Shown one piece after another: positions 3,610-64,000 of a stretch of DNA of 64,000 bases. The first letter of the stretch is position 1. Each line of letters opens with the position of its first letter. Position numbers and translations under genes: made by a program. The notes beneath the pieces are model-generated. The model had not been told where the DNA came from. It ran no database searches and worked only from the letters and a program-made list of their open reading frames with translations. The stretch comes from a virus, in IMG/VR virus record IMGVR_UViG_3300042691_027609; one strand, given 5' to 3'.

Positions 3610-5913
3610 ATGAGTAAAAGTTATGTATTAGTAGACAGCTTAGACAAGCTGAAGCAAATGGTGTCTGAGATCAAATCCAACGATCTTATTGCATTCGATA
3701 CCGAAACCAATTCACTTAATCCCAGAAAAGGCAAAATCATAGGATTCAGTATTAGCACCAAACCTGATACTGGTTACTATTTTCCTACGATGTTGTTTCA
3801 AAACAATCAACTACAAGACGCAAAGATAGATGATCATCTTTGCCACGATCTCGCTAAAAAAGCAATCAATTTACTAGTTGGTAAAAAGCTAGTAATGCAT
3901 AATGCGAGCTTTGACTGTAGATTCGTAAAAGCATTTTACGGTATCGATTTGACGCCAAGTCTTTACGTCGATACTGTATTGTTGGTACACACAGTACAAG
4001 AAGAAGGCGCTGGATTCGGATCTGGTAAACCTTTTGGATTGAAAGAGATCGCTAAGTCAATTCAACAACACATCGGTCTTGACGTAGAAAAAGCTGCAAA
4101 CGAAGAGCAAGTACTACTCAAGCAATCCATCAAACAAAACGGTGGTCAAACCACAATGGAGAATTACGAGATATGGAAAGCCGATATAAATATTCTTGCA
4201 GAGTACGCTGCTGCTGATACTGATCTTACACTTCGATTGTATCACCATTTTATTAAGACGCTTCAAGAAGAAGGTCTAGAAAAGTTTTTCTTTGAGGACG
4301 AAGTAATGCCTCTGTATAAAGAAGTAACTATTCCGATGGAAGAAAGAGGTGTTAGGCTTGATATGGATTTGATAAAGCAAGCCAAACAAGAGTTGGAAGT
4401 AGAGATGAAAAAGCTATCTGACGAAGTCATGAAGACTCTAATATCTGATTCTCGAGTACAACAGTGGGTAATATATAAAGCTACAGAAGCATATCCACCA
4501 AATCACAAAGGTACATTTGCTCAGAGACTAATCGCAGAAGCTGATCTGGATGTGCCTAAATCTGAAAAGACAGGCAAATATAGCATAACTCAAGCAAACA
4601 TTACCAGGCTTCCAGAATCAGCACACAAGAAGTTCCTATTGACTGGTGATCAGAATCTTTTAGATGAAGACATAGTTATCAAGCTTTGCATGAAACTCTG
4701 GAAAGAAGACAACGATGGTAAGTTTTTCAATATACAGTCTCGTGATCACTTGGGTGAAATAGCATTCGGCGTACTTGGCATAAAGCCGCTTTCTACTACT
4801 GCGAAAGGCAAACCTCAGTTTGATGACAACTTCATAGAATCTATAATGGATAAATACGATTGGGCTAAAAAGCTACAAATGTATAATCGATTACTCAAAA
4901 TCAGTTCGACTTACGTAGATAGATTCTTGTACGGCCAAGAAGATGGCAGATACTATTTTTCATATAGACAACACGGTACCATTTCAGGTCGATATGGATC
5001 TGATGCTCAACAGTTGCCGCGAGTAAAAGAAGAAGGCGATGACGATCCAATAGTTGTTAAGTACAACAACATGGTTAGAGCATTCTTTATTCACGATGAA
5101 GGTAACCTATTCATAGACTCCGATTATGAATCTCTTGAGCCTCACGTATTTGGTGATGTATCTGGGGACGAAGGTCTAAAAGACATTTTTAGAAACAATT
5201 GGGATTTCTATTCTACTATTGCAATCAAAACAGAGAAGCTAGATCAATATTCGCCTGATAAAAAAGCAGAGAATTATCTGCGTAAACAAAGATCTGATAT
5301 TAGAAACAAAGCGAAAGCTTACGCGCTTGGTATTCCATACGGTATGGGTGCCTATGCTCTTGGTCGTAATATCAACGTGGCAACCAAAGAAGCACAAAAA
5401 CTTGTTGATGGTTATTTAAATGGATTTCCTGAACTCAAGAAGTGGATGCAAAGATCAGAAAACGATGCTCGCACTCTTGGATACGTTAAGACCAAAGTAG
5501 GTCGCATCAGACACTTGCCAAAAGTCAAGAAGATATACGAAGCTCTTGGAGATGCAATGTTAGATTGGAATACCAAACGTCAATTGGAAAAAGAATACGG
5601 CAAAGAAAAGATACTGAATCTGTCTAGAGACTTCATTAACGGTTTAAACAATAGTAAAAACTTTCAGATCCAATCGCTTGCAGCTTCGATAGTGAATCGT
5701 GCAGCATTAGCCATAAATAGAAAGTTCAAAGAAGTTGGCATCAATGGTATTGTATTGGCGCAAGTACACGATCAGTTAATCATGGAAGTTGAAGAGTCTC
5801 GCATAGAAGAAGCTACAAAGATAGTACAAGACGCAATGGAGAATACTACTAAACTTAGTATAGCACTCAAAGCGCCTCCCTCTGTAGCGCACAACTGGCG
5901 CGATGGTCACTAA
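3610..5913 (+). CDS. polA: Family A DNA polymerase with 3'-5' exonuclease
   Basis: Exo motifs FDTET, HNASFD, YAAAD; pol motifs SDYESLE (A), RNKAKAYALGIPYG (B), QVHDQL (C). Confidence 0.95.
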   Translation: MSKSYVLVDSLDKLKQMVSEIKSNDLIAFDTETNSLNPRKGKIIGFSISTKPDTGYYFPTMLFQNNQLQDAKIDDHLCHDLAKKAINLLVGKKLVMHNASFDCRFVKAFYGIDLTPSLYVDTVLLVHTVQEEGAGFGSGKPFGLKEIAKSIQQHIGLDVEKAANEEQVLLKQSIKQNGGQTTMENYEIWKADINILAEYAAADTDLTLRLYHHFIKTLQEEGLEKFFFEDEVMPLYKEVTIPMEERGVRLDMDLIKQAKQELEVEMKKLSDEVMKTLISDSRVQQWVIYKATEAYPPNHKGTFAQRLIAEADLDVPKSEKTGKYSITQANITRLPESAHKKFLLTGDQNLLDEDIVIKLCMKLWKEDNDGKFFNIQSRDHLGEIAFGVLGIKPLSTTAKGKPQFDDNFIESIMDKYDWAKKLQMYNRLLKISSTYVDRFLYGQEDGRYYFSYRQHGTISGRYGSDAQQLPRVKEEGDDDPIVVKYNNMVRAFFIHDEGNLFIDSDYESLEPHVFGDVSGDEGLKDIFRNNWDFYSTIAIKTEKLDQYSPDKKAENYLRKQRSDIRNKAKAYALGIPYGMGAYALGRNINVATKEAQKLVDGYLNGFPELKKWMQRSENDARTLGYVKTKVGRIRHLPKVKKIYEALGDAMLDWNTKRQLEKEYGKEKILNLSRDFINGLNNSKNFQIQSLAASIVNRAALAINRKFKEVGINGIVLAQVHDQLIMEVEESRIEEATKIVQDAMENTTKLSIALKAPPSVAHNWRDGH

Positions 5914-10088: not shown

Positions 10089-10113
10089 TTAAATAAAAAA
10101 TATAAAACAAGTG

Positions 10114-10138
10114 AAAGCACCTTTTCGGTGCTTTTTTT
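10114..10138 (+). terminator. Intrinsic terminator
   Basis: AAAGCACC/GGTGCTTT hairpin followed by a T run. Confidence 0.8.
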
Positions 10139-10205: not shown

Positions 10206-11147
10206 ATGAATAAATTTGCATTAGTTTCTATTATGGGGAACGTAGGAACAACATTCAATTCCCAAGGAGGGGGTTATGGATTGATAGCCACCAAAATGAT
10301 GAGAGATCGATATCCCACCGATCAAATCGATGTTAATCCCGATCCTGCAACTTGGCACGACTACGATCACATCTTCGTTTGCGAAGGAGTCAACTTCGTA
10401 GAGGGCAGCTTTAATGTTCCCGGTGGACCACAACAAGTACATCACGACAAGATGAAAGCAATGGGTGGTTATCAAGGCGGAGTAACATTCATCAATCAAA
10501 AGTTCGACTTCGAAACATTCAACAAACGCATCGACATCAAATACGCAGAGTTTCCACAAGGCGAAGTGCTAGATCTATTTCTTGTTGAAGGTATTGTCAA
10601 AGAGAAATGCGTTATAGGAGATTCACACGCATTGAGCGTTTGGCGTCCTGGATTTGGATTAGATTGGACTGCTGGTCGTACTCTACACGGATTCTTGAAG
10701 AGAAACACTCCGGAGCAACTCAACGAAAAGTACGAAGAGACTGTTCTCTATTTTGGAAATATCGATTTGCGATTCCATCTGATGAGACAAGAAGATCCTG
10801 TTGGCGCTACTGTTGATCTGTTTACCAGATATGTAGAGTTCGCAAAGCAACTCAACAACGTAACACTAGTAGAACTACTTCCAGTAGAACATGAAAGTCG
10901 TAAGATTCCAGGTACGGGCTTATACAAGAAGCAACCATTTTTTGGAACCAGAGAAGAGAGAATGAAATTAAGAGAAGTTGCCAATAAGATCATCAACGAA
11001 TCAGGTCTAAAAGTTATTCAGTGGCCACAAGAGTGGATCGATGAAGACGGTACAAAGATGCTCGATATCCTTGAACAGAAACAATCTGTTCACTTGCGAC
11101 CAAAAAATTATCCATACATAAACGAAATTACGAATGTTTCTAAATAA
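10206..11147 (+). CDS. Two-domain protein: N-terminal domain reminiscent of T4 beta-glucosyltransferase N-domain plus C-terminal SGNH/GDSL-like domain
   Basis: SGNH-like blocks VIGDSH, FGNIDLR, QSVHL; the N-terminal resemblance was judged by eye. Confidence 0.55.
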   Translation: MNKFALVSIMGNVGTTFNSQGGGYGLIATKMMRDRYPTDQIDVNPDPATWHDYDHIFVCEGVNFVEGSFNVPGGPQQVHHDKMKAMGGYQGGVTFINQKFDFETFNKRIDIKYAEFPQGEVLDLFLVEGIVKEKCVIGDSHALSVWRPGFGLDWTAGRTLHGFLKRNTPEQLNEKYEETVLYFGNIDLRFHLMRQEDPVGATVDLFTRYVEFAKQLNNVTLVELLPVEHESRKIPGTGLYKKQPFFGTREERMKLREVANKIINESGLKVIQWPQEWIDEDGTKMLDILEQKQSVHLRPKNYPYINEITNVSK

Positions 11148-12018
11148 AGCAACAGACCAATCCAACTTGGATTTGGCAAATGGCAAAGATCTGCAATACT
11201 ATTTGGATCTCACCAAAGATTACAAACACGATTTCACTTTTACCATCAAAGACATCGATGGATTCAAAGTAGTAGATGACGGAGAATTTGAATTTGGAAG
11301 CAAAGCAAAAATGGCAGATTTCTTTATATCGCAAGTGAAAGAAGACGCATTGGTTTATGTAGCACCGAGAACGGGATACGCTCCATTTTCTCTGTGTTAT
11401 TTGGCAAAGAAGTACAACAAGAAATTGTATCTCGTCATGCCCGCCTCAAAAGAGGCATCGCAGCACCAATTGACCGCTATCGAGTACGGAGCGATTCCGT
11501 TATTTGTTAGGATTCCTGCAATGCCTACCGCAAACATTTGGGCAAAACAATTCGCCGAAAAGGTAGGCGCAAAGTATTTGCCTTTCGGTCTCAAACACGA
11601 AATGGTGGTAGCAGGTGGAGTAAGGATATTCTATGATAATTTTAAAGATATGAATATTCCTGAGATATGGACGGTATTTTCTACAGGGGTGCTGTCCCGG
11701 ACGCTACAGATCGCGCTGCCTGACACAACCTTTAATGCTGTAGCAGTAGCAAGAAACATTCAGCCGGGTGAGCTCGGAAGAGCTCGATTTTACAGTCATG
11801 CAAAGAAGTTTACAGATAACAGCGAAATCGTACCGCCTTTTGATTGTATACGCACTTACGACGCGAAAGGTTGGGAATTTATTAAAAAATTCGGTAAACA
11901 AGGAGATTGGTTTTGGAATGTGGCTCGAAATATGCCAACACCGACAATTAAAGCAAAAGACGTAGATTCTCAAAGGGAGTGGGGAGACAAGAAAGATTTT
12001 GACAGATATTCCAAATAA
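11134..12018 (+). CDS. PLP-dependent enzyme, fold type II (cysteine synthase/ACC deaminase-like)
   Basis: GSKAK Schiff-base Lys context, APRTGYAPFSLCYLAKKY, VFSTGVLSRTL phosphate loop, TYDAKGW..FWN C-terminus. Confidence 0.7.
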   Translation: MFLNKATDQSNLDLANGKDLQYYLDLTKDYKHDFTFTIKDIDGFKVVDDGEFEFGSKAKMADFFISQVKEDALVYVAPRTGYAPFSLCYLAKKYNKKLYLVMPASKEASQHQLTAIEYGAIPLFVRIPAMPTANIWAKQFAEKVGAKYLPFGLKHEMVVAGGVRIFYDNFKDMNIPEIWTVFSTGVLSRTLQIALPDTTFNAVAVARNIQPGELGRARFYSHAKKFTDNSEIVPPFDCIRTYDAKGWEFIKKFGKQGDWFWNVARNMPTPTIKAKDVDSQREWGDKKDFDRYSK

Positions 12019-12035
12019 AAGATTTATATTACATC

Positions 12036-12347
12036 ATGAAAAGTATATTACAACAAGCACACGACATCGTATTCGAAAGAAACGAAGAAAAAGAACGCAT
12101 GTATGGACCATTTGAAGAAGGCATGGAACAAGCAGCAAGAATCGCATCTGAGCTCTCCAGAAAAGAGATTACAGCTTTCGATATGTACAATTGCATGATT
12201 GCGCTAAAGCTATCCAGAGCTTCATGGAATTATAAAGAAGACAATTATCTTGATGCTGTAGCATACATGGCATCTCTAAACCAATACCAAAAAACAAAAC
12301 AACAAGATGTTAATCAAGAAAGTAAAGGACGTAAAAACACCAAGTAG
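12036..12347 (+). CDS. DUF6378-like small helical protein, possible dNTP pyrophosphohydrolase
   Basis: IL..A..IV...R...YG...MIALKLSR.....DNYLDAVAY pattern. Confidence 0.7.
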   Translation: MKSILQQAHDIVFERNEEKERMYGPFEEGMEQAARIASELSRKEITAFDMYNCMIALKLSRASWNYKEDNYLDAVAYMASLNQYQKTKQQDVNQESKGRKNTK

Positions 12348-12738
12348 AGGCACTAGCAAAAGTGCTGGCATAGATTTTTTCACTCCAAATGATATGGAGA
12401 GAATTTCATTAGCTCCCAATGAATCAGCTCTAATTCCATCAGGCATCAAAGCACAAGTACCTCAAGGCCACGCATTTATTGCATTCAACAAATCAGGAGT
12501 AGCTACGAAAAAGGGATTAGTAGTTGGAGCTTGCGTAGTAGACGAAGATTACGAGGGCGAAATTCATATCCACGTTATAAATACATCAAGAGGATTTGTA
12601 GAAATTTTACCCGGCGAAAAACTTACACAATTTATTTTAATACCAGTAAATTATCAAAATGTCCAACAAGTTGAATCATTCCCTGAGCGACACTCTGAAA
12701 GAGGAGCTGGCGGATTTGGAAGCACAGGCATTAGCTAA
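12307..12738 (+). CDS. dut: Trimeric dUTPase
   Basis: SAGIDF, NKSG, VVDEDYEGEI, Q and RGAGGFGSTG motifs. Confidence 0.95.
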   Translation: MLIKKVKDVKTPSRGTSKSAGIDFFTPNDMERISLAPNESALIPSGIKAQVPQGHAFIAFNKSGVATKKGLVVGACVVDEDYEGEIHIHVINTSRGFVEILPGEKLTQFILIPVNYQNVQQVESFPERHSERGAGGFGSTGIS

Positions 12739-13144
12739 AAGAAAAAAACTAGATACAGTTTTTATAAACATCGCTAAAGAAGTGTCTAAACTTTCTCACT
12801 GCAAAAGATCTCAAGTGGGAGCTGTGATAGAATTATCGGGAAATATAGTATCATTTGGTTTTAATGGTACTCCCAAAGGTATGGATAATTGTTGCGAAGA
12901 CCACAATAATACAACTTTTCCATATGTAATCCATGCCGAATCAAACGCGATAATAAAAGCGGCAAAATCAGGCACTTCAATGAAAGGTGGTACATTGTAT
13001 TTAACTCTTTCACCGTGCTTAGATTGCTGTAAACTTATTTTGCAATCGGAAATAAATAGGGTTGTATATTTAGAAGACTACAGAGATGATACTGGAGTTA
13101 AATTTTTAAAAAAATTTATAAAAGTTCAAAAATATGAATACTAG
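12659..13144 (+). CDS. dCMP deaminase (start uncertain, overlaps dut)
   Basis: SHCKRSQVGA, GFNGTP, HAESNAI, SPCLDC zinc-deaminase motifs. Confidence 0.92.
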   Translation: MSNKLNHSLSDTLKEELADLEAQALAKRKKLDTVFINIAKEVSKLSHCKRSQVGAVIELSGNIVSFGFNGTPKGMDNCCEDHNNTTFPYVIHAESNAIIKAAKSGTSMKGGTLYLTLSPCLDCCKLILQSEINRVVYLEDYRDDTGVKFLKKFIKVQKYEY

Positions 13145-13796
13145 TATACACGGTAAAGAATATGCAAATGCTACTTCTGCGTTTGAGAGTCTTTTCACTA
13201 ACATTCTCCATACTGGAGAAGATTACGCATGTACAAAAGCTGCATTCAACGTTTCTTTTGTTTTGCAAAACCCTATCGATAAAGTAGTAACAACCACACA
13301 AAGAAAGTTCAAACAAGACTATGCGGAATACGAGTGGGAATGGTACATTAAAGGCGATAGAGACGCTAAAGAAATATCTGAAAGAGCCAAGATCTGGAAA
13401 CAAATGATGATACCTGGCACTACTGAAGTCAATAGTAATTACGGGTATTTTTGGAATTACAACAACCAATTATTAAGAGTTATTGATGAGTTAAAAACAA
13501 ATAAACAAACACGTAGAGCTATTCTGGTACACTATTTGCTACATGAATTAGACCGATACAAATATGATACTCCATGTAACGATGTACTTAACTTTTATAT
13601 CAAAGACGATAAATTGAATATGACAGTTTTTGCAAGAAGTATAGATCTTGTATACGGTTTCTGTAATGATCAATACACTTTTGCAAAACTCATGGAATAC
13701 GTTTCAGAAAAGACTGGTTATGAAATAGGTCAAATGCATTGGTTCGTAACTAATTTGCATATATATCAAAGACATTTTGATTTAATGAAAAAATAA
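13134..13796 (+). CDS. Thymidylate-synthase-family enzyme of the dCMP (hydroxy)methylase type
   Basis: Catalytic PC; RSIDLVYGFCND has Asp where dUMP-specific ThyA has Asn (RSxDxxLGxPFN); NLHIY. Confidence 0.8.
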   Translation: MNTSIHGKEYANATSAFESLFTNILHTGEDYACTKAAFNVSFVLQNPIDKVVTTTQRKFKQDYAEYEWEWYIKGDRDAKEISERAKIWKQMMIPGTTEVNSNYGYFWNYNNQLLRVIDELKTNKQTRRAILVHYLLHELDRYKYDTPCNDVLNFYIKDDKLNMTVFARSIDLVYGFCNDQYTFAKLMEYVSEKTGYEIGQMHWFVTNLHIYQRHFDLMKK

Positions 13797-13798
13797 TT

Positions 13799-14251
13799 AT
13801 GGAAGTTAAATTAAATAGAAGTTTTTTGGAAGAGCAGTTGAGCAGACTACCGAAAAACAAATATAACTGCTATCAGTGGTGGCGTCGTTATCAAACTAGA
13901 GATGTACTTCCAAAAAAAGCTCCATTATATAATAAAATAGTTAATGGAGATTACGATCCATCAACATATTTGTATCAATCTAAAATGGAATTATATTTAT
14001 TAGAAGATAAACTACAAGGGGTAAAGTATTCCGATGAAGCTCACGACATTAGAAGCCTATTCATGGAAAGACACCGCAGACTTATCCATGACTACGAAAA
14101 AGAAGAGAAGCAAATAATGCAAAATCTTATCGGTGATTTCTCAAAAACTTTTAAGTTAGATAAAAAACAACTTGAAACTTTTATGGAAACGTATGATGGT
14201 ACGCTACTTGAAATGTATAATCATTTTAAACAACAAACCAAAAAAATATAA
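13799..14251 (+). CDS. Hypothetical protein
   Basis: 150-aa ORF closely following the cluster. Confidence 0.7.
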   Translation: MEVKLNRSFLEEQLSRLPKNKYNCYQWWRRYQTRDVLPKKAPLYNKIVNGDYDPSTYLYQSKMELYLLEDKLQGVKYSDEAHDIRSLFMERHRRLIHDYEKEEKQIMQNLIGDFSKTFKLDKKQLETFMETYDGTLLEMYNHFKQQTKKI

Positions 14252-15094: not shown

Positions 15095-15168
15095 TGACCC
15101 TTAGCTCAGTTGGTTAGAGCAACAGACTCATAATCTGTGGGTGCACGGTTCGATCCCGTGAGGGTCAA
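15095..15168 (+). tRNA. tRNA with CAT anticodon (elongator Met or Ile2)
   Basis: Cloverleaf with acceptor TGACCCT/AGGGTCA and loop CT-CAT-AA; no encoded CCA. Confidence 0.9.
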
Positions 15169-15186
15169 CAACATAACATCAATATT

Positions 15187-15456
15187 ATGATTATAGCATT
15201 ATCAGTTGCGCTTGTCTTTATGTTTTTTGTTCTACTTGGAGCTCTTGCTCACATTGGAAAGTTACAAAAACAACTCATAGATATAGATAAAGAGCAGCAC
15301 ACTCAGAATACAGATATTATAGATCTCATTAAGTTTAAAGGAGAAGCAACTCAAATGTTGTTACAACATATCGAAATACTACAATACTTGGTAGATAAAG
15401 ACGATTTGTTAGGCAAGAAAAAGATATATTACAAAGGTCCTATGGGAGAAGCGTAG
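15187..15456 (+). CDS. Membrane-anchored coiled-coil protein
   Basis: N-terminal TM helix followed by heptad-like region. Confidence 0.65.
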   Translation: MIIALSVALVFMFFVLLGALAHIGKLQKQLIDIDKEQHTQNTDIIDLIKFKGEATQMLLQHIEILQYLVDKDDLLGKKKIYYKGPMGEA

Positions 15457-15462
15457 AAACTT

Positions 15463-15534
15463 GGTTCCGTAGTTCAATGGATAGAACGGGTGACTTCTAA
15501 TCTCCAAATACAAGTTCGATTCTTGTCGGAACTA
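15463..15534 (+). tRNA. tRNA-Arg(TCT)
   Basis: Acceptor GGTTCCG/CGGAACT, loop CT-TCT-AA, TTCGA T-loop; one T-T mismatch in the anticodon stem. Confidence 0.9.
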
Positions 15535-15547
15535 CAAACGAATTAGC

Positions 15548-15601
15548 GACTGTAGCCGAGGATCCAGCGCTATGGCTTCAGGTCATAGTATCGGTATAGT
15601 C
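15548..15601 (+). ncRNA. Unassigned structured RNA between tRNAs
   Basis: GACTGTAGCCGA/TCGGTATAGTC outer stem and CTATGGC/GTCATAG inner stem. Confidence 0.4.
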
Positions 15602-15627
15602 CTTTGGTGACTAAAAAGACTGGAAAT

Positions 15628-15709
15628 GCCCCGATGGTGGAATTGGTAGACACATAGGTCTTAGGAACCTACGTCGAAAGACATGAGAGTTCGAGTCTCT
15701 CTTGGGGCA
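15628..15709 (+). tRNA. tRNA-Leu(TAG)
   Basis: Acceptor GCCCCGA/TTGGGGC, TAGGT-CTTAGGA-ACCTA, long variable arm. Confidence 0.92.
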
Positions 15710-15715
15710 CAAAGG

Positions 15716-15840
15716 TTGAACGGGGAATGAAGGTAAGACAGATACCTGATGGTGGGCGGGCTATATCTTCGGAGTTGAAACTATCAGAGTAATGCCGTTC
15801 GTAAAAGCAGTTGTCCACGCAACCATCTTCTGCTTTCCTA
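15716..15840 (+). ncRNA. Unassigned GC-rich structured RNA, possible pseudoknot
   Basis: Several complementary segments (see findings); no credible ORF. Confidence 0.45.
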
Positions 15841-15908
15841 TTTTTAAAAATAATAAACACTAAATATTTTTTTCTTACGTGTCTATATATTTATAATAAA
15901 TTAGATAC

Positions 15909-16358
15909 ATGAGAAAAATAAATAGAAATGAATTTATTAAAGTTTGTGAGAGTAGTTTATCTATGGCAGAGGCTAGTGTAAAGTTGGATTTACATTTTAA
16001 CACATTTAAAAGATATGCTGTTAAATTTGGATGCTATAATCCAAATGCGAGTGGTAAAGGGATGAAAAAACGCGGGAAACCAAAAGTAGATTTGAAAAAC
16101 ATACTTTCTGGGAATCACCCAGAATTTCAAACTTTTAAACTAAAAAATAGATTACTCAAAGGCGGTTTAATAGAAAATATTTGTAAAGTGTGTAGTATAT
16201 CCGAATGGAATGGCAAACAACTTAATATGGAGTTAGATCATATTGACGGAGATAGAACGAATCATAAATTTGAAAATTTAAGAATGTTATGTCCTAATTG
16301 TCATGCACAAACTGAAACATACCGTTCAAAAAACCGGAAAAATACTCAGGTGTCGTAA
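15909..16358 (+). CDS. HNH endonuclease (free-standing, homing-type)
   Basis: CKVC...ELDHIDGDRTNHKFENLRMLCPNCH; N-terminal HTH-like segment; stop lies inside the downstream tRNA. Confidence 0.9.
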   Translation: MRKINRNEFIKVCESSLSMAEASVKLDLHFNTFKRYAVKFGCYNPNASGKGMKKRGKPKVDLKNILSGNHPEFQTFKLKNRLLKGGLIENICKVCSISEWNGKQLNMELDHIDGDRTNHKFENLRMLCPNCHAQTETYRSKNRKNTQVS

Positions 16359-16429
16359 CCGGTAGCCGAGAAGGTCTTAAAAACCTTTGAGCTGTAAAGC
16401 TCGTGTGGGTTCAAGTCCCATCCTGAGTA
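16344..16429 (+). tRNA. tRNA-Leu(TAA)
   Basis: Acceptor ACTCAGG/CCTGAGT, AAGGT-CTTAAAA-ACCTT, variable arm GAGCT/AGCTC. Confidence 0.9.
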
Positions 16430-16467
16430 CATAACTGCTGCTCTTTGACATAAAGGAGAAATTAAAC

Positions 16468-16788
16468 ATGACAACACAATTAGCATTTGCTTTTGGCGTG
16501 CTTATGATGATTGCTATCATTATGTTGGTAACGATTGTTGTAGGTATGGTGAAGGTAATCAAATTAGAAAAACAACTCAAAGAGTTCGACAGAGCTGCTT
16601 CGAAGGAGACTGAGTTCCTACATAGGCACATGACTGATGTAGAGCGAGCAATTTATTCGGAAATAAACGAAACAAGAAATAGGTTTGATAGGTATACTGA
16701 AGATTTCAGAAGAGAGTTAATGGCTTACACAGATTCACGAGTAGATAAATCACTTGGAGCAAAAGAAAAACAAATACTTAAATCATAA
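16468..16788 (+). CDS. Membrane-anchored coiled-coil protein enclosed by 19-nt complementary flanks
   Basis: N-terminal TM helix; flanks 16431-16449 and 16798-16816 are complementary. Confidence 0.7.
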   Translation: MTTQLAFAFGVLMMIAIIMLVTIVVGMVKVIKLEKQLKEFDRAASKETEFLHRHMTDVERAIYSEINETRNRFDRYTEDFRRELMAYTDSRVDKSLGAKEKQILKS

Positions 16789-16833
16789 AAAAAAATAGTT
16801 GAAGAGCAGTAGTTATATTTATATAAATAAAAC

Positions 16834-16970
16834 AGAAGAGTCAATCATACAATGAACAATGACGCGCACGGCAACCAGGAAAGTGTGCACGCGGAACTGG
16901 CAATGCAAACGATGTTGATGGAATACCTTCGGCGTGGGTAAGCTTCAAATTCCATTATTGACTCTTTTTT
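16834..16970 (+). other. Small transcript: closed stem enclosing a 29-codon ORF (16852-16941), or an sRNA
   Basis: ATATTTAT at 16815; AGAAGAGTCAAT/ATTGACTCTTTT stem; ORF MNNDAHGNQESVHAELAMQTMLMEYLRRG. Confidence 0.45.
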
Positions 16971-16986
16971 AAGTTCTTTAAAATAT

Positions 16987-17350
16987 GGGGATGACAGGTT
17001 TTGACAGCAGAGCGGTCGGTAGGTAAACATGCAGAGGTATGGTTCTAATCCTCTATAATATCTGGACAAACCAATAAATGACAACGTAGAACTTTCTACT
17101 TGGACCTTCGAAGACGCTATGGCGTTTGTCGGAGCTGATTACGCTGTAGCAGCCTAATCAACCGGGGCCGGTGCACACACGCCTTGCAACAGAAGTGCTT
17201 TAAAGATTTCCTGGTTAGATTAAATCAGGTGGTGGAGCGTTCTAACGCGAGTTAGTTCCCTAATACGGTGCAGCACAAGCAGTACTAAGCATGTGAGACG
17301 TTTTACTTGCAGATCTTTTGTTGGACCCGGCTTCGATGCCGGCATCTCCA
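16987..17350 (+). ncRNA. ssrA: tmRNA
   Basis: GGGGATG/CATCTCC+A acceptor stem with G3:U; GGTTTTGAC D-like loop; CCGGC-TTCGAT-GCCGG T-arm; internal tag ORF 17080-17157 ending YAVAA*. Confidence 0.93.
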
Positions 17351-17356
17351 CAACAT

Positions 17357-17428
17357 TGCGGCGTAGAGCAGAGGTAGCTCACTAGGCTCATAACCTAGGG
17401 GTCATTGGTTCGATTCCAATCGCCGCTA
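17357..17428 (+). tRNA. tRNA-Met(CAT), initiator-like
   Basis: 1:72 mismatch (T:T), GCGGCG/CGCCGC acceptor, CTAGG-CTCATAA-CCTAG. Confidence 0.88.
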
Positions 17429-17470
17429 CTAAAATAGGTTATATATTTTTTCACAAAAACAAACACAAAC

Positions 17471-34236: not shown

Positions 34237-34887
34237 ATGACTTTAGGAGCTGCTCTATATGATGCTTTTGGAAAAACATATATTCTTAATTTGAAAAAGA
34301 GTTTAGATAGGAAATCATCTATGGAAAAAAAATGTTCTTTAATTAATTTAAATTATCAATTTTTTGAAGCATTTGATGGAGATAATTTTTTATTTCCTTT
34401 TTATACGAAAGGAGGATATATGAATCACAATCAATTAGGCGAGATAACAACATCTAGGTATTATGCAGCTCAATACGCATTAAACTATATAATTCATAGA
34501 GCAATTAACAATAATGTTAAAAGTTTTATTTTTATGAACGATGATGTTTATTTCGATAACTATCATAGTTTCACTGATCAAAATTTCCTAGATATAAAAA
34601 ACAAATTACCAGATAATTGGGATATTGTGGTCTTAGGTAATATGTTTCACGAAATTTCATATAATGGAGAAGTCGATTATCAGTTAAACACATGTCATAC
34701 AAAAGGGTGTCAAGCACTGGCAATAAATCACACAGTATATCACGATATAATACAACATTCATCACCAATAACTGATTTAGCTGGAGATCACTTGAATGAT
34801 AAATTAAGAAGCATAGGAAAAATAATATATAATATACATCCTGATATATGTCTTCAAGATAGATCTATTATTACAACAATGATTTAA
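34237..34887 (+). CDS. GT25-like glycosyltransferase
   Basis: YILNLKKSLDRK, FFEAFDG, NDD at the EDD position, WDIVVLG. Confidence 0.72.
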   Translation: MTLGAALYDAFGKTYILNLKKSLDRKSSMEKKCSLINLNYQFFEAFDGDNFLFPFYTKGGYMNHNQLGEITTSRYYAAQYALNYIIHRAINNNVKSFIFMNDDVYFDNYHSFTDQNFLDIKNKLPDNWDIVVLGNMFHEISYNGEVDYQLNTCHTKGCQALAINHTVYHDIIQHSSPITDLAGDHLNDKLRSIGKIIYNIHPDICLQDRSIITTMI

Positions 34888-34907
34888 AAATATAAAAATA
34901 AAATATA

Positions 34908-35876
34908 ATGAAAAAAATAGTGTATATAACTGGTTGTTTAGGCTTTATAGGATCATACATAACAAGAAAATGTCTAGAAATGGGATGGTATGTAAAAGGA
35001 GTCGATAAAATGACATACGCATCAAATAAAGATTTATTAAAGGAGTTTAAAAAATATGATAACTTTTCCTTTGTTCATTGCGACATAAATGACCTAACGT
35101 TTTTATATGATTGTGATTATGTTATAAACACAGCAGCAGAAACTCATGTAGGAAATTCAATAATGAGTAGTGAAGAATTTGTACACTCAAATATAAATGG
35201 GGTACATAATATTTTACAACTTATTAAGAATTATAGACAAGAAACAAATAAAACACCAGTATTTCTACATTTTAGTACAGATGAAGTATATGGAGACATA
35301 GAATCAGGCGCGCATACTGAAGATGATCTATTAAAACCTAGTAACCCATATTCAGCAACCAAAGCAGCAGCAGATATGCTTGTATTAGCTTGGGGAAGAA
35401 CCTATAATATCCCGTATATTATCGTTAGACCAACTAACAATTATGGTATTGGTCAATACGTAGAAAAATTGATACCTAAGACATGTAAATATTTACATTT
35501 GAATAGAAAAATTCCATTGCATAATAATGGTACACCTATCAGAAACTGGTTACATGCTCAAGACACTGCTGATGCGATTATAAAAATAATACAAAAAGAA
35601 GTGAAGAACGAGATTTATAATATCTCTGGAGGATTTGAACAAACAAATATAAAAACTATTGAGAAAATAGTGTTAGCATATAATAAAGATTATGTTGTGT
35701 TACACGAAAAAGATTTATTCCCATTTGTAGATTTTTCATGTGATAGAGCAGGACAAGACGTAAGATATTCTTTAGACGATTCTAAATTAAGATCTCTCGG
35801 TTGGGAACCGAAAATAAATTTTGATCAAGAAATAAAAAATATAGTAAATTATTATAAGAATAAATTTATATGGTAA
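34908..35876 (+). CDS. NDP-glucose 4,6-dehydratase (RmlB-like)
   Basis: TGCLGFIG, AAETHV, STDEVYG, PYSATKA, NNYG.GQ..EKLIP. Confidence 0.9.
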   Translation: MKKIVYITGCLGFIGSYITRKCLEMGWYVKGVDKMTYASNKDLLKEFKKYDNFSFVHCDINDLTFLYDCDYVINTAAETHVGNSIMSSEEFVHSNINGVHNILQLIKNYRQETNKTPVFLHFSTDEVYGDIESGAHTEDDLLKPSNPYSATKAAADMLVLAWGRTYNIPYIIVRPTNNYGIGQYVEKLIPKTCKYLHLNRKIPLHNNGTPIRNWLHAQDTADAIIKIIQKEVKNEIYNISGGFEQTNIKTIEKIVLAYNKDYVVLHEKDLFPFVDFSCDRAGQDVRYSLDDSKLRSLGWEPKINFDQEIKNIVNYYKNKFIW

Positions 35877-63460: not shown

Positions 63461-63706
63461 ATGAAAACAGAAACGTACGAAGAGTATCTGAAACTCTTTG
63501 AAGAAAACATGAAGGCCTCAATCGAATCAGTAGAAGATCAATCATCAAAAGAAATATTAGCCGATCTAAAACCGATGACAGAGCCCGAATGGAAAGAAGC
63601 TATCGAAAACGGACTATTCGACCTCGATATGGACGAAGAAGCTCTAATGAAATTATACGAAGACATCGTTAAGATGTATCCATACGAAAACAAAGAGGAT
63701 GAATAG
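63461..63706 (+). CDS. Acidic hypothetical protein
   Basis: 81-aa E-rich ORF. Confidence 0.6.
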
Positions 63707-64000
63707 AATAGACACAGAATACCAAGACCTCTTGGCTTACATTCTAGGTAATGGAGTAAATAAGAAAGATAGAACCGGAACGGGTACACTATCAATCTTT
63801 GGGTGGCAGATCAGACACGACATGAAGGAAGGCTTCCCACTCCTAACAACGAAGAAGATGGCTTGGAAGTCAATCGTAACAGAGCTGTTATGGTTTCTAC
63901 GCGGTGATACAAATATCAAATACCTTGTAAATAATGGATGTCATATTTGGGATGGTGATGCGTATAAGAATTACAAACTAAAACATAACTTTCAAATCAA
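63699..64000 (+). CDS. thyA: Canonical thymidylate synthase, 3'-truncated by the window edge (absent from the ORF track)
   Basis: Translated by hand: [12 protein letters not shown]...[12 protein letters not shown]...GFPLLTTKK...[12 protein letters not shown]...IWD. Confidence 0.93.

What the first reader, a model, noticed from the sequence alone, without database searches (positions are those of the whole stretch)
10206..13796. Candidate new cytosine hypermodification pathway: dCMP-type TS paralogue, PLP enzyme and BGT-like/SGNH fusion
Seen: six tightly packed genes (SGNH-containing protein, fold-II PLP enzyme, DUF6378-like, dUTPase, dCMP deaminase, TS-family enzyme). The TS homologue reads RSIDLVYGFCND, and a separate canonical thyA begins at 63699. 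Known: Asn at this position (E. coli ThyA RSCDVFLGLPFN) selects dUMP, while Asp (T4 dCMP hydroxymethylase, recalled as RSNDVVFGFRND) selects dCMP. PLP enzymes act on amino-acid-conjugated bases in phage thymidine hypermodification. Inference: the phage makes 5hm(or 5m)-dCMP and elaborates it with an amino-acid- or acyl-derived group rather than glucose. The hmU kinase and aGPT-Pplase of known pathways are not recognisable in this window, so the conjugation chemistry would differ.
Basis: partly seen in the sequence, partly recalled or inferred. Interest (0 to 1): 0.88.

Follow-up and report, generated by a model that had tools for sequence, protein, structure and literature searches.

The report
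Phage cytosine hypermodification gene module
An uncultured aquatic phage, like hundreds of related viral contigs, carries a conserved gene set that most likely makes 5-hydroxymethylcytosine DNA and then decorates it with a PLP enzyme and a previously undescribed glucosyltransferase-half/esterase-fold hybrid instead of a sugar transferase.

Summary
Six co-oriented, tightly packed genes lie at 10206-13796, and a separate canonical thyA starts at 63699.

- **TS paralogue:** it carries all three residues that mark T4 gp42-type 5-hydroxymethyl-dCMP synthases. It lacks the Asn169 that marks 5-hydroxy-dCMP synthases.
- **294-aa protein:** a fold-type-II PLP enzyme of the PHROG typified by Pseudomonas phage M6 gp52, the proven decarboxylase of amino-acid-conjugated thymine in DNA. 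The predicted PLP lysine is conserved.
- **313-aa protein:** a hybrid. Residues 2-111 are homologous to the N-terminal part of T4 beta-glucosyltransferase. Residues 130-310 have an SGNH fold with Ser/Gly/Asn/His kept.
- **Co-occurrence:** the genes travel together in distant viral contigs on other phage backbones. All 62 linked TS homologues are the cytosine/hydroxymethyl type.
most relatives carry a further about 300-340-aa partner gene ("X"). The window lacks it.
- **Cultured carriers:** Aeromonas phages 31, 44RR and 25 have gp42, and a 2010 review found no glucosyltransferase homologues in them. Phage 31 was checked here.

The chemistry is inferred and no paper describing the module was found. 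Other first-stage readers of this scan flagged the same cluster on other DNA, none with a follow-up shown. Verdict: a real, widespread, probably new variant of phage DNA hypermodification.

The parts
10206..11147 (+). 313-aa hybrid protein ('F313'). The N-terminal part (about residues 2-111) is homologous to the N-terminal part of T4 beta-glucosyltransferase. The C-domain (130-310) has an SGNH/GDSL fold.
   Evidence: AlphaFold2 gave pLDDT 93.6. SGNH matches: Foldseek probability 1.0 and VIA Z 10-12 over residues 131-305. Family-to-family hhalign against BGT gave Prob 97.1, E 5.5e-11, residues 2-111 against BGT 1-117, with N70/G73/G74 shared. Conserved in the family: D139, S140, H141, R189, H191, R232, R252, E290, S294, H296. 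PHROGs 13881 and 17781, both of unknown function.
11134..12018 (+). 294-aa fold-type-II PLP enzyme of the M6 gp52 family (phrog_7093). K57 is the predicted PLP lysine.
   Evidence: phrog_7093 1.3e-23; M6 gp52 hits the same PHROG at 2.2e-159. Foldseek matches threonine deaminase, serine racemase, D-cysteine desulfhydrase and 1j0a with probability 1.0. K57 aligns with M6 gp52 K36, and the C-terminal PFxC..YDxKxW motif is shared. 31% identity to the PALP domain fused to a DNA methylase in Erythrobacter phage R6L gp1.
12036..12347 (+). DUF6378 protein of unknown role; an invariable companion of the module.
   Evidence: PF19905 1.2e-13. Present in 28 of 28 related loci with enough flank. No match to solved structures.
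12307..12738 (+). Trimeric-type dUTPase. In many relatives this slot holds a MazG-like pyrophosphatase instead.
   Evidence: PF00692 1.2e-22. MazG occupies the slot in L004, L005 and L006. MazG or dUTPase is present in 28 of 28 loci.
12659..13144 (+). dCMP deaminase.
   Evidence: PF00383 1.1e-22 and phrog_174 2.4e-51.
13134..13796 (+). Thymidylate-synthase paralogue with the signature of a dCMP hydroxymethylase (5hm-dCMP synthase).
   Evidence: The best solved relative is T4 dCMP hydroxymethylase, 1.8e-18. Signature residues are YDTPC (Asp three residues before the catalytic Cys), RSID (Asp169 kept) and FCND (Asn177 replaced by Asp). It falls below every NCBIfam thymidylate-synthase cut-off.
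13799..14251 (+). 150-aa protein of unknown function directly after the TS paralogue. It is conserved at the same place in a close relative, so it may be associated with the module.
   Evidence: phmmer against the L004 164-aa protein, about 1e-36. Only a weak PHROG hit.
63699..63998 (+). Start of a separate canonical thyA, cut off by the window end.
   Evidence: PF00303 2.4e-32 over profile positions 2-86.

Best explanation
This is a conserved phage module for replacing and then elaborating cytosine in virion DNA.

**Pre-replicative part (well supported).** The TS paralogue converts dCMP to 5-hydroxymethyl-dCMP, as T4 gp42 does. The dUTPase (MazG in relatives), the dCMP deaminase and the separate ThyA manage the dCMP, dUMP and dTMP pools, as in T-even phages. 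The role of DUF6378 is unknown.

**Post-replicative part (inferred).**
- The 313-aa hybrid would use its BGT-derived N-terminal part to bind DNA and present 5hmC.
- Its SGNH domain (Ser140/His296) would transfer or remodel an acyl- or amino-acid-type group on the 5-hydroxymethyl oxygen. This takes the place held by a glucosyltransferase in T4, or by aGPT-Pplase in thymidine pathways.
- The M6 gp52-like PLP enzyme would then process the appended primary-amine group, most likely by decarboxylation.

In most relatives a further partner protein X takes part. In this window it is missing and may be encoded elsewhere in the genome.
For: **The TS paralogue is cytosine-specific and of the hydroxymethylase type.**
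- Its residue signature is D/D/D, like T4 gp42. RB69 gp48 is E/N/D, M6 is D/D/N and E. coli ThyA is L/D/N. The rules are taken from PMC13326640.

**The PLP enzyme is related to a proven DNA-base enzyme.**
- It hits phrog_7093 at 1.3e-23, and the proven decarboxylase M6 gp52 is the archetype of that PHROG (PMC8989533).
- K57 aligns with K36 of M6 gp52.
- The same PLP clade is fused to a ParB/DNA-methylase protein in Erythrobacter phage R6L.

**The 313-aa protein is a hybrid.**
- The N-terminal part is homologous to BGT, Prob 97.1.
- The C-domain has an SGNH fold, Z 10-12, with S140, G157, N185 and H296 conserved.

**The hybrid family is tied to DNA-modification domains.**
- It is fused to a true HMUDK_hel domain in P0381 (43 bits, cut-off 25). 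That gene lies two genes upstream of a D/D/D TS.
- In Aeromonas phage 31 it forms the N-terminus of the 795-aa ORF233c.

**The genes co-occur on unrelated backbones.**
- Loci L012, L015 and L017 share 33-37% identity in the hybrid and carry other replication genes (RecA and an SNF2 helicase in L012, a DnaE-type polymerase in L017). They keep the hybrid, the PALP gene and a TS gene; the TS of L012 was aligned, those of L015 and L017 gave D/D/D.
- In 28 IMG/VR loci with enough flank: TS 28, DUF6378 28, MazG or dUTPase 28, PALP 24.
- 62 of 62 linked TS homologues are D/D/D.

**Cultured phages fit.**
- According to a 2010 review, Aeromonas phages 44RR, 31 and 25 have gp42 and gp56 homologues but no glucosyltransferase homologues (PMC2993671). 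They carry the hybrid family. I confirmed a D/D/D gp42 in phage 31.
Against: - No chemistry has been measured, so the appended group is unknown.
- The PLP protein gets no Pfam PALP hit of its own. A direct hhalign to the single M6 gp52 sequence is not significant.
- The SGNH domain lacks the usual Asp of the DxxH block (Q293 sits there; E290 is the nearest conserved acid) and gets no Pfam GDSL hit.
- BGT's catalytic Asp100 is not conserved, and only about 110 N-terminal residues align.
- Partner X, present in 22 of 28 relatives, is absent from the window, so the pathway here may be incomplete or different.
- No dNMP kinase for 5hm-dCMP was identified in the window.
- Co-occurrence in the closest relatives partly reflects shared ancestry.
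- A large glycosyltransferase island (22768-43802) could supply a glycosyl route instead.
Confidence: 0.6

Rival explanations
1. The TS paralogue makes 5hmC, but the 5hmC is then glycosylated by glycosyltransferases encoded elsewhere, for example in the 21-kb glycan island of this window. On this reading the SGNH hybrid only O-acetylates or de-acetylates the DNA-bound sugar, or an NDP-sugar. The PLP enzyme would serve amino-sugar or precursor synthesis.
For: - The window encodes at least eight glycosyltransferase-domain proteins, plus GDP-mannose dehydratase, epimerases and a DegT aminotransferase.
- Many SGNH enzymes are carbohydrate O-acetyl esterases or transferases; these are the top fold matches.
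- Phage glycosyltransferases are known to put diverse glycans on 5hmC (bioRxiv 10.1101/2023.12.21.572611).
Against: - In L012, L015 and L017 no gene within the 7-8 kb flanks carries a glycosyltransferase Pfam family.
- The island is about 9 kb away and has a different GC content (28-32%), which suggests separate acquisition.
- The PLP enzyme is of the gp52 type, not a sugar aminotransferase.
- The 2010 review found no glucosyltransferase homologues in the Aeromonas carriers.
Confidence: 0.15
2. The hybrid and the PLP enzyme do not touch DNA. They would act on free nucleotides, amino acids or host metabolites as auxiliary metabolism, and sit next to nucleotide-pool genes only because early genes cluster together.
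For: - Fold-type-II PLP enzymes and SGNH hydrolases are mostly small-molecule enzymes.
- The neighbours are nucleotide-pool enzymes.
Against: - The N-terminal part is homologous to a DNA glucosyltransferase.
- The PLP clade is fused to a DNA methylase and belongs to the PHROG of a DNA-acting decarboxylase.
- A family member is fused to the helical domain of a DNA kinase.
- The link to D/D/D TS homologues is strict, 28 of 28 loci.
Confidence: 0.15
3. The TS paralogue is not a hydroxymethylase. It would make 5-methyl-dCMP or 5-hydroxy-dCMP, or it would work on dUMP, so the downstream chemistry starts from another base.
For: - Residue rules are correlative.
- TS homologues have surprised the field before: RB69 gp48 turned out to be a flavin-dependent hydroxylase.
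- Tenacibaculum phage PTm1 pairs a homologue of the hybrid with a TS-like protein of E/N/D signature.
Against: - All three diagnostic positions match T4 gp42, and Asp169 is kept; it is Asn in all tested 5ho-dCMP synthases.
- Asp177 argues against dUMP.
- Asp at the Leu143 position argues against methyl transfer.
- The best PDB hit is T4 dCH.
Confidence: 0.1

Closest known systems
T-even phage 5hmC pathway (T4 gp42 dCMP hydroxymethylase, gp56, cd, td, then alpha/beta-glucosyltransferases)
   Same: - A TS paralogue with Cys146, Asp177, Asp at position 143 and Asp169.
- It is accompanied by a dCMP deaminase, a dUTP/dCTP-type pyrophosphatase and a separate ThyA.
- The first about 110 residues of the 313-aa protein are homologous to the N-terminal part of T4 BGT.
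   Different: - The BGT C-terminal UDP-glucose domain and the catalytic Asp100 are absent.
- An SGNH-fold domain takes their place.
- A PLP enzyme is added.
- The polymerase of close relatives is family A rather than T4-type family B.
Thymidine hypermodification pathways (M6, ViI, PaMx11: dUMP hydroxymethylase, 5-HMUDK, aGPT-Pplase/AADT, PLP decarboxylase; PMC8989533)
   Same: - A PLP enzyme of the same PHROG as M6 gp52, with the lysine conserved.
- A TS-family hydroxymethylase sits next to post-replicative enzymes.
- Gene content varies combinatorially between lineages.
- Some family members are fused to the HMUDK helical domain.
   Different: - The base is cytosine (Asp177), not uracil.
- No aGPT-Pplase was found.
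- No P-loop 5-HMUDK was found in the window.
- The transferase slot is held by the BGT-N/SGNH hybrid, and in most relatives by an additional uncharacterised partner X.
5-hydroxycytosine arabinosylation pathway (RB69 gp48, DLP3 gp80; PMC13326640)
   Same: A TS homologue acting on dCMP supplies a hydroxyl handle for post-replicative group transfer.
   Different: - Those synthases carry Asn at position 169; the window enzyme keeps Asp.
- Their elaboration is by arabinosyltransferases.
SGNH O-acyl esterases and transferases (e.g. OatA/PatB peptidoglycan O-acetyltransferases, sialate O-acetylesterase)
   Same: The fold, and the conserved Ser (GDSH), Gly, Asn (GNID) and His in the usual places along the fold.
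   Different: - No Asp three residues before the His.
- Extra invariant Arg and His residues (R189, H191, R232, R252).
- It is fused to a DNA-glucosyltransferase-derived domain.
- The substrate is unknown.

Membership tests
T4 gp42-type dCMP hydroxymethylase (5hm-dCMP synthase) | Thymidylate-synthase fold with the catalytic Cys (E. coli C146) | tested here: met
   PF00303 9.8e-27. The Cys aligns with E. coli C146 and T4 C148.
T4 gp42-type dCMP hydroxymethylase (5hm-dCMP synthase) | Asp in place of Asn177 (dCMP rather than dUMP) | tested here: met
   FCND aligns with T4 FRND and E. coli PFN.
T4 gp42-type dCMP hydroxymethylase (5hm-dCMP synthase) | Acidic residue in place of Leu143 (a hydroxymethyl rather than a methyl product) | tested here: met
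   DTPC against T4 DFMC and E. coli LAPC. The rule is from PMC13326640.
T4 gp42-type dCMP hydroxymethylase (5hm-dCMP synthase) | Formation of 5hm-dCMP from dCMP and methylene-tetrahydrofolate | not testable with these tools
   This needs an enzyme assay.
5-hydroxy-dCMP synthase (RB69 gp48 type) | Asn in place of Asp169 | tested here: not met
   The window has RSID (Asp); RB69 has RSQN.
M6 gp52 / ViI gp226-type PLP-dependent decarboxylase of DNA-borne amino-acid conjugates | Sequence membership in the family typified by M6 gp52 | tested here: met
   phrog_7093 1.3e-23 for the window protein and 2.2e-159 for M6 gp52. A direct single-sequence hhalign was not significant.
M6 gp52 / ViI gp226-type PLP-dependent decarboxylase of DNA-borne amino-acid conjugates | Fold-type-II PLP fold with the Schiff-base lysine | tested here: met
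   Foldseek probability 1.0 to threonine deaminase, serine racemase and 1j0a. The invariant K57 aligns with M6 K36.
M6 gp52 / ViI gp226-type PLP-dependent decarboxylase of DNA-borne amino-acid conjugates | Decarboxylation of a base-linked amino acid in DNA | not testable with these tools
   This needs biochemistry.
SGNH/GDSL hydrolase superfamily | SGNH alpha/beta/alpha fold | tested here: met
   VIA Z 10-12, rmsd about 3 A, 146-161 residues aligned over 131-305. Foldseek probability 1.0.
SGNH/GDSL hydrolase superfamily | Block I Ser, block II Gly, block III Asn, block V His | tested here: met
   S140 and H296 are invariant; G157 and N185 are at least 90% conserved in 40 sequences. Their positions follow the predicted strands as in SGNH enzymes.
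SGNH/GDSL hydrolase superfamily | Asp of the DxxH block (third triad member) | tested here: not met
   The consensus is ME.RQSVH, with Gln three residues before His296. E290 is the nearest invariant acid.
T4 beta-glucosyltransferase (PF09198, GT-B) | N-terminal part of the enzyme | tested here: met
   hhalign A2 against A8: Prob 97.1, E 5.5e-11, residues 2-111 against 1-117. Asn70, Gly73 and Gly74 are shared. Against T4 BGT alone: Prob 89.3.
T4 beta-glucosyltransferase (PF09198, GT-B) | Catalytic Asp100 and the C-terminal UDP-glucose-binding domain (R191, R195, R269) | tested here: not met
   The alignment ends at BGT residue 117 with a gap at T99-D100. The C-half has an SGNH fold. The protein is therefore not a glucosyltransferase.
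Thymidine-type hypermodification cluster (5-HMUDK + aGPT-Pplase) | 5-hmdU DNA kinase encoded with the cluster | tested here: not met
   Nothing in the window: phmmer with M6 gp54 and HMMs of both partner types gave a best E of 0.5. A true HMUDK_hel domain is fused to a distant family member, P0381. The rest of this genome could not be searched.
Thymidine-type hypermodification cluster (5-HMUDK + aGPT-Pplase) | aGPT-Pplase / amino-acid:DNA transferase | tested here: inconclusive
   phmmer with M6 gp51 found nothing in the window. No such Pfam family is listed for neighbours in L011, L012, L015 or L017. No profile search with the Pfam aGPT-Pplase models was run.

The most novel reading that the evidence does not exclude
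The 313-aa family is a new class of DNA-modifying enzyme. It would use a glucosyltransferase-derived DNA-binding module to deliver 5-hydroxymethylcytosine (and perhaps 5-hydroxycytosine) to an SGNH acyl- or aminoacyl-transfer site. Together with a gp52-like PLP enzyme it would make the first amino-acid-derived hypermodified cytosine, present in a large and abundant group of aquatic phages and in cultured Aeromonas T4-like phages.
Probability: 0.4. Interest if true: 0.9.

Novelty: new variant of a known kind. Interest (0 to 1): 0.8.

Why it matters
Known phage cytosine hypermodifications are glycosylations of 5hmC or 5hoC. Amino-acid- and polyamine-derived modifications are known only on thymine.

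- **New chemistry.** A conserved non-glycosyl route on cytosine would add a new base chemistry and a new enzyme architecture (a BGT N-terminal part joined to an SGNH domain).
- **An old puzzle.** It would explain how phages that have gp42 but no recognised glucosyltransferase, such as Aeromonas 44RR, 31 and 25, finish their DNA. PMC2993671 left that question open in 2010.
- **Practical consequences.** It bears on restriction and CRISPR evasion, on sequencing bias in aquatic viromes, and on enzymes for labelling 5hmC.
- **Scale.** The family is large: 804 clusters at 90% identity, 379 clusters at 50% identity and at least 584 IMG/VR stretches.
- **Testability.** Cultured carriers exist, so the idea can be tested directly.

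Tried and rejected
- **Whole genome.** It is not held, and metagenome records behind the loci cannot be searched. A dNMP kinase or partner X elsewhere in this phage could therefore not be looked for.
- **Nucleotide search.** megablast of the cluster against cultured phages found no match.
- **Solved structures by sequence.** Searches with the 313-aa protein, the 294-aa protein, DUF6378 and the fused forms gave nothing usable.
- **NCBIfam.** No hits for the two key proteins.
- **ESM Atlas.** Nothing for the N-domain.
- **BFVD.** Only uncharacterised family members and SGNH tail proteins; BGT is not among the 50 listed rows.
- **PLP family against one sequence.** hhalign against the single M6 gp52 sequence was not significant. 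The link rests on the PHROG HMM and on the alignment of motifs.
- **Partner X.** The idea that X is a 5-HMUDK-like kinase rests only on language-model similarity. Pfam and hhalign to P0381 and P0327 do not support it. No Walker A motif is present in the fused forms. I leave X unassigned.
- **Loose tblastn.** The PLP protein searched at E up to 5 found no ViI or M6 hit.
- **5ho-dCMP synthase.** Considered for the TS paralogue and rejected because Asp169 is kept.
- **Literature.** Searches for SGNH with hmC, for an hmC kinase, for phosphomethylcytosine, and for PLP with hmC found nothing relevant.

Full report
**1. What is there**

The region 10206-13796 holds six co-oriented ORFs of 313, 294, 103, 143, 161 and 220 aa. 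Their junctions overlap or nearly abut. A terminator-like hairpin at 10113-10135 lies just upstream.

Pfam and PHROGs name four of the six outright:
- DUF6378, 1.2e-13
- dUTPase, 1.2e-22
- dCMP deaminase, 1.1e-22
- a thymidylate-synthase (TS) family protein, 9.8e-27

A second, canonical thyA begins at 63699.

Relatives place the window in large uncultured viral contigs. The contig that carries the identical 313-aa protein is 166,869 bp. Close relatives show the same order of family-A DNA polymerase, HSP20, GroES and GroEL before the cluster.

**2. The TS paralogue**

Its best solved relative is T4 dCMP hydroxymethylase, at 1.8e-18. It falls far below every NCBIfam thymidylate-synthase cut-off.

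A 2026 paper (PMC13326640) gives residue rules in E. coli numbering:
- Asn177 replaced by Asp selects dCMP.
- An acidic residue at Leu143 goes with a hydroxymethyl rather than a methyl product.
- Asp169 replaced by Asn marks the flavin-dependent 5-hydroxy-dCMP synthases such as RB69 gp48.

I aligned the window protein with reference enzymes. The table gives the residues at positions 143, 169 and 177.

| Protein | Residues |
|---|---|
| Window TS paralogue | D / D / D |
| T4 gp42 | D / D / D |
| RB69 gp48 | E / N / D |
| M6 dUMP hydroxymethylase | D / D / N |
| E. coli ThyA | L / D / N |

The sequence evidence therefore points to a 5hm-dCMP synthase. It is not a dUMP enzyme, a methylase or a hydroxylase. 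This is a prediction from residues, not an assay.

**3. The PLP enzyme**

The 294-aa protein has no Pfam hit of its own but matches phrog_7093 at 1.3e-23. Pseudomonas phage M6 gp52 matches the same PHROG end to end at 2.2e-159. That protein was shown experimentally to be the PLP-dependent decarboxylase of C-alpha-glycinyl-thymine in DNA (PMC8989533).

- An AlphaFold2 model (pLDDT 75.5) matches threonine deaminases, serine racemases, D-cysteine desulfhydrase and 1j0a with probability 1.0. The M6/ViI paper used the same 1j0a template for ViI gp226.
- The invariant K57 aligns with K36 of M6 gp52, the residue that paper proposes as the Schiff-base lysine. A C-terminal PFxC..YDxKxW motif is also shared.
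- The nearest homologues in cultured phages (31% identity) are domains inside ParB/DNA-methyltransferase fusion proteins of Erythrobacter phages. There Pfam PALP scores above its threshold.

These links argue that this PLP clade works on DNA. A direct hhalign of the family to the single M6 sequence was not significant, so the link rests on the PHROG profile and the aligned motifs.

**4. The 313-aa hybrid**

A deep, diverse alignment (40 sequences, 28-74% identity) gave a confident model, pLDDT 93.6.

*C-terminal domain.* Residues 130-310 have an SGNH/GDSL fold. Foldseek gives probability 1.0. VIA gives Z 10-12 with 146-161 residues aligned at about 3 A to sialate and xylan esterases, and lower-ranked matches to the OatA and PatB O-acetyltransferases. 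The family keeps the following:
- GDSH, with D139, S140 and H141 invariant
- a Gly after the next strand (G157)
- GNID (N185)
- a C-terminal SVH (H296)

These are the four residues that give the SGNH family its name. The usual Asp three residues before the His is missing. Four further Arg and His residues are invariant (R189, H191, R232, R252).

*N-terminal part.* It gave no fold-search result because the SGNH half filled the hit lists. A profile-profile comparison with a family alignment of T4 beta-glucosyltransferase (BGT) gives Prob 97.1 and E 5.5e-11 over residues 2-111 against BGT 1-117. The invariant Asn70, Gly73 and Gly74 are shared. Against T4 BGT alone the probability is 89.3. BGT's catalytic Asp100 and its UDP-glucose domain are not present.

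The protein keeps the N-terminal part of a 5hmC-DNA glucosyltransferase and has swapped the other half for an acyl-transfer fold. From general knowledge of GT-B enzymes (not tested here), the N-terminal domain is the one that binds the acceptor, which for BGT is DNA.

**5. Is the association more than neighbourhood?**

Close relatives keep the same gene order, with MazG in place of dUTPase. Those loci are too similar to count as independent evidence.

Distant members of the 313-aa family (33-37% identity) sit on other backbones:
- **L012** carries RecA and an SNF2 helicase. Its order is DUF6378, hybrid (fused form), PALP (51% identical to the window's), TS, dimeric-dUTPase-like.
- **L015:** DUF6378, hybrid, a 303-aa gene, PALP, MazG, TS.
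- **L017** carries a DnaE-type polymerase. Its order is TS, hybrid, a 335-aa gene, PALP, dUTPase.
- **L011** encodes a 981-aa protein that joins a methyltransferase, a bona fide 5-hmdU-DNA-kinase helical domain (43 bits against a cut-off of 25) and the hybrid. It lies two genes from a D/D/D TS.

In 80 IMG/VR loci found with the family profile, I searched the flanks with HMMs built from the sequences above. Among the 28 loci with at least 6 kb downstream:

| Gene family | Loci with it (of 28) |
|---|---|
| TS homologue | 28 |
| DUF6378 | 28 |
| MazG or dUTPase | 28 |
| PALP | 24 |
| dCMP deaminase | 24 |
| Partner X | 22 |

Every one of the 62 module-linked TS homologues is D/D/D. The six extra TS copies are canonical L/D/N ThyA.

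**6.

Most relatives carry a 300-340-aa gene, here called X. It lies between the hybrid and the PLP gene, or is fused to the hybrid's C-terminus in the 560-790-aa forms.

- The window lacks X: the hybrid overlaps the PLP gene directly, and an X-profile search of all window ORFs gives nothing better than E 0.55.
- In a complete 174-kb relative whose locus also lacks X, an X-like gene sits elsewhere in the genome. X may therefore lie outside this window.
- A protein-language-model search places X near clusters in which 10-36% of members carry the HMUDK helical domain. Pfam and hhalign do not confirm this, and no Walker A motif is present. I leave X unassigned.
- One sub-lineage (L032, L035, L037, L039) lacks PALP within the fetched flanks. 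There the TS match lies in an ORF of about 600 aa, and in L039's record an X match lies in a 602-aa ORF. This suggests a TS-X fusion, which I did not confirm.

Gene content thus varies combinatorially between lineages, as it does in thymidine hypermodification clusters.

**7. Cultured phages**

By tblastn the hybrid family occurs in 43 phage records. Thirty-eight are Aeromonas T4-like phages, two are Stenotrophomonas phage IME13 records and three are Tenacibaculum phages.

- A 2010 review lists Aeromonas phages 44RR, 31 and 25 among those with homologues of genes 42 and 56 but none of the glucosyltransferase genes. How such phages finish their DNA was left open (PMC2993671).
- I confirmed a D/D/D gp42 next to the polymerase gene in phage 31.
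- There the hybrid is the N-terminus of the 795-aa ORF233c, which has a weak HMUDK_hel hit. It sits beside a phage-encoded sodium:solute symporter.
- Tenacibaculum phage PTm1 has a full-length homologue and a TS-like protein of E/N/D signature, the 5ho-dCMP type. The family may therefore serve more than one hydroxylated cytosine.

**8. Mechanism, with its status**

*Supported by sequence.* dCMP is hydroxymethylated by the TS paralogue. The pool enzymes and a separate ThyA mirror the T-even logic.

*Inferred.*
- 5hmC is incorporated into DNA.
- The hybrid binds the DNA through its BGT-like part.
- Its Ser140/His296 site transfers or remodels an acyl- or amino-acid-type group on the 5-hydroxymethyl oxygen.
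- The gp52-like PLP enzyme acts on the resulting primary amine, most likely by decarboxylation.

*Unknown.* The donor, the linkage, the role of X and of DUF6378, and whether a phospho-intermediate is used.

I put 0.6 on the overall reading, about 0.85 on the hydroxymethylase assignment alone, and 0.4 on the specific new-transferase reading.

**9. Rivals**

- **Glycosylation.** The 21-kb glycan island at 22768-43802 carries many glycosyltransferases and GDP-sugar enzymes. The SGNH hybrid could then be a sugar O-acetyl enzyme. Against this, L012, L015 and L017 show no glycosyltransferase Pfam family within their flanks, and the island has a distinct GC content.
- **Small-molecule metabolism only.** The DNA-enzyme homologies and fusions argue against this.
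- **A different TS product.** All three diagnostic residues argue against this.

**10. Novelty**

I found no paper that links an SGNH or PLP enzyme to 5hmC, or that describes this family. The literature tool does not cover subscription journals, so this is not proof of absence.

Other first-stage readers of this scan flagged the same cluster, or the same domain swap, in other genomes. Those notes show no follow-up and do not count as independent evidence.

I class the finding as a new variant of a known kind. Phage DNA hypermodification is known, but this version works on cytosine without a glycosyltransferase and includes a new enzyme architecture.

Noticed in passing
window 22768-43802 (+): A 21-kb island of low GC content (28-32%) encodes glycan biosynthesis genes. 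It holds GT1/GT4 (two), GT2, GT11 fucosyltransferase, GT34, a GT2+GT10 fusion and GT25. It also holds GDP-mannose 4,6-dehydratase, three epimerases, a DegT aminotransferase, a TPP enzyme, an HpcH aldolase, DJ-1 and Ldh_2. The target could be virion proteins, the host surface or DNA; it is unknown.
   Followed up: partly
window 16987-17351 and 15095-17429: The phage encodes a tmRNA (tag peptide ending in AVAA) and five tRNAs: Met twice, Arg-TCT, Leu-TAG and Leu-TAA.
   Followed up: no
L002 (Erythrobacter phage vB_EliS_R6L gp1, 807 aa read): A single protein joins a ParB-like domain, an N6/N4 DNA methyltransferase, a gp52-type PLP domain and a phrog_12517 domain. It lies near a PAPS-reductase-like gene. 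This may be a different PLP-based DNA modification system.
   Followed up: partly
L003 4363-5886 (Aeromonas phage 31): A phage-encoded sodium:solute symporter (PF00474, 7e-53) lies directly upstream of the 795-aa hybrid-containing ORF233c. It may import the donor for the modification.
   Followed up: no
L102 1444-2121 and L099 6551-7570 (Tenacibaculum phage PTm1): PTm1 has a homologue of the hybrid (ORF-050). It also has a TS-like protein with Glu three residues before the Cys, Asn169 and Asp177, which is the signature of 5-hydroxy-dCMP synthases. Its canonical TS match is split within a 527-aa ORF.
   Followed up: partly
L032 12979-14793; G004 (record of L039) 34672-35358: In one sub-lineage the TS match lies in an ORF of about 600 aa, and in L039's record a partner-X match lies in a 602-aa ORF. 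No PLP gene is found within the fetched flanks of these loci. This suggests a TS-X fusion, not confirmed.
   Followed up: partly
window 3610-5913, by synteny with L004 2936-5242: The replicative polymerase of close relatives is family A (DNA_pol_A), not the family-B enzyme of T4.
   Followed up: no
L001 5147-5908 and 7980-8660 (Bacteroides phage BF486P2): The closest cultured-phage relative of the TS paralogue (45% identity, D/D/D signature) lies in a 53-kb Bacteroides phage that has a second, divergent TS-like gene nearby. In all phage records, tblastn found the hybrid only in Aeromonas, Stenotrophomonas and Tenacibaculum phages, and the PLP enzyme only in Erythrobacter and Microcystis phages.
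   Followed up: partly
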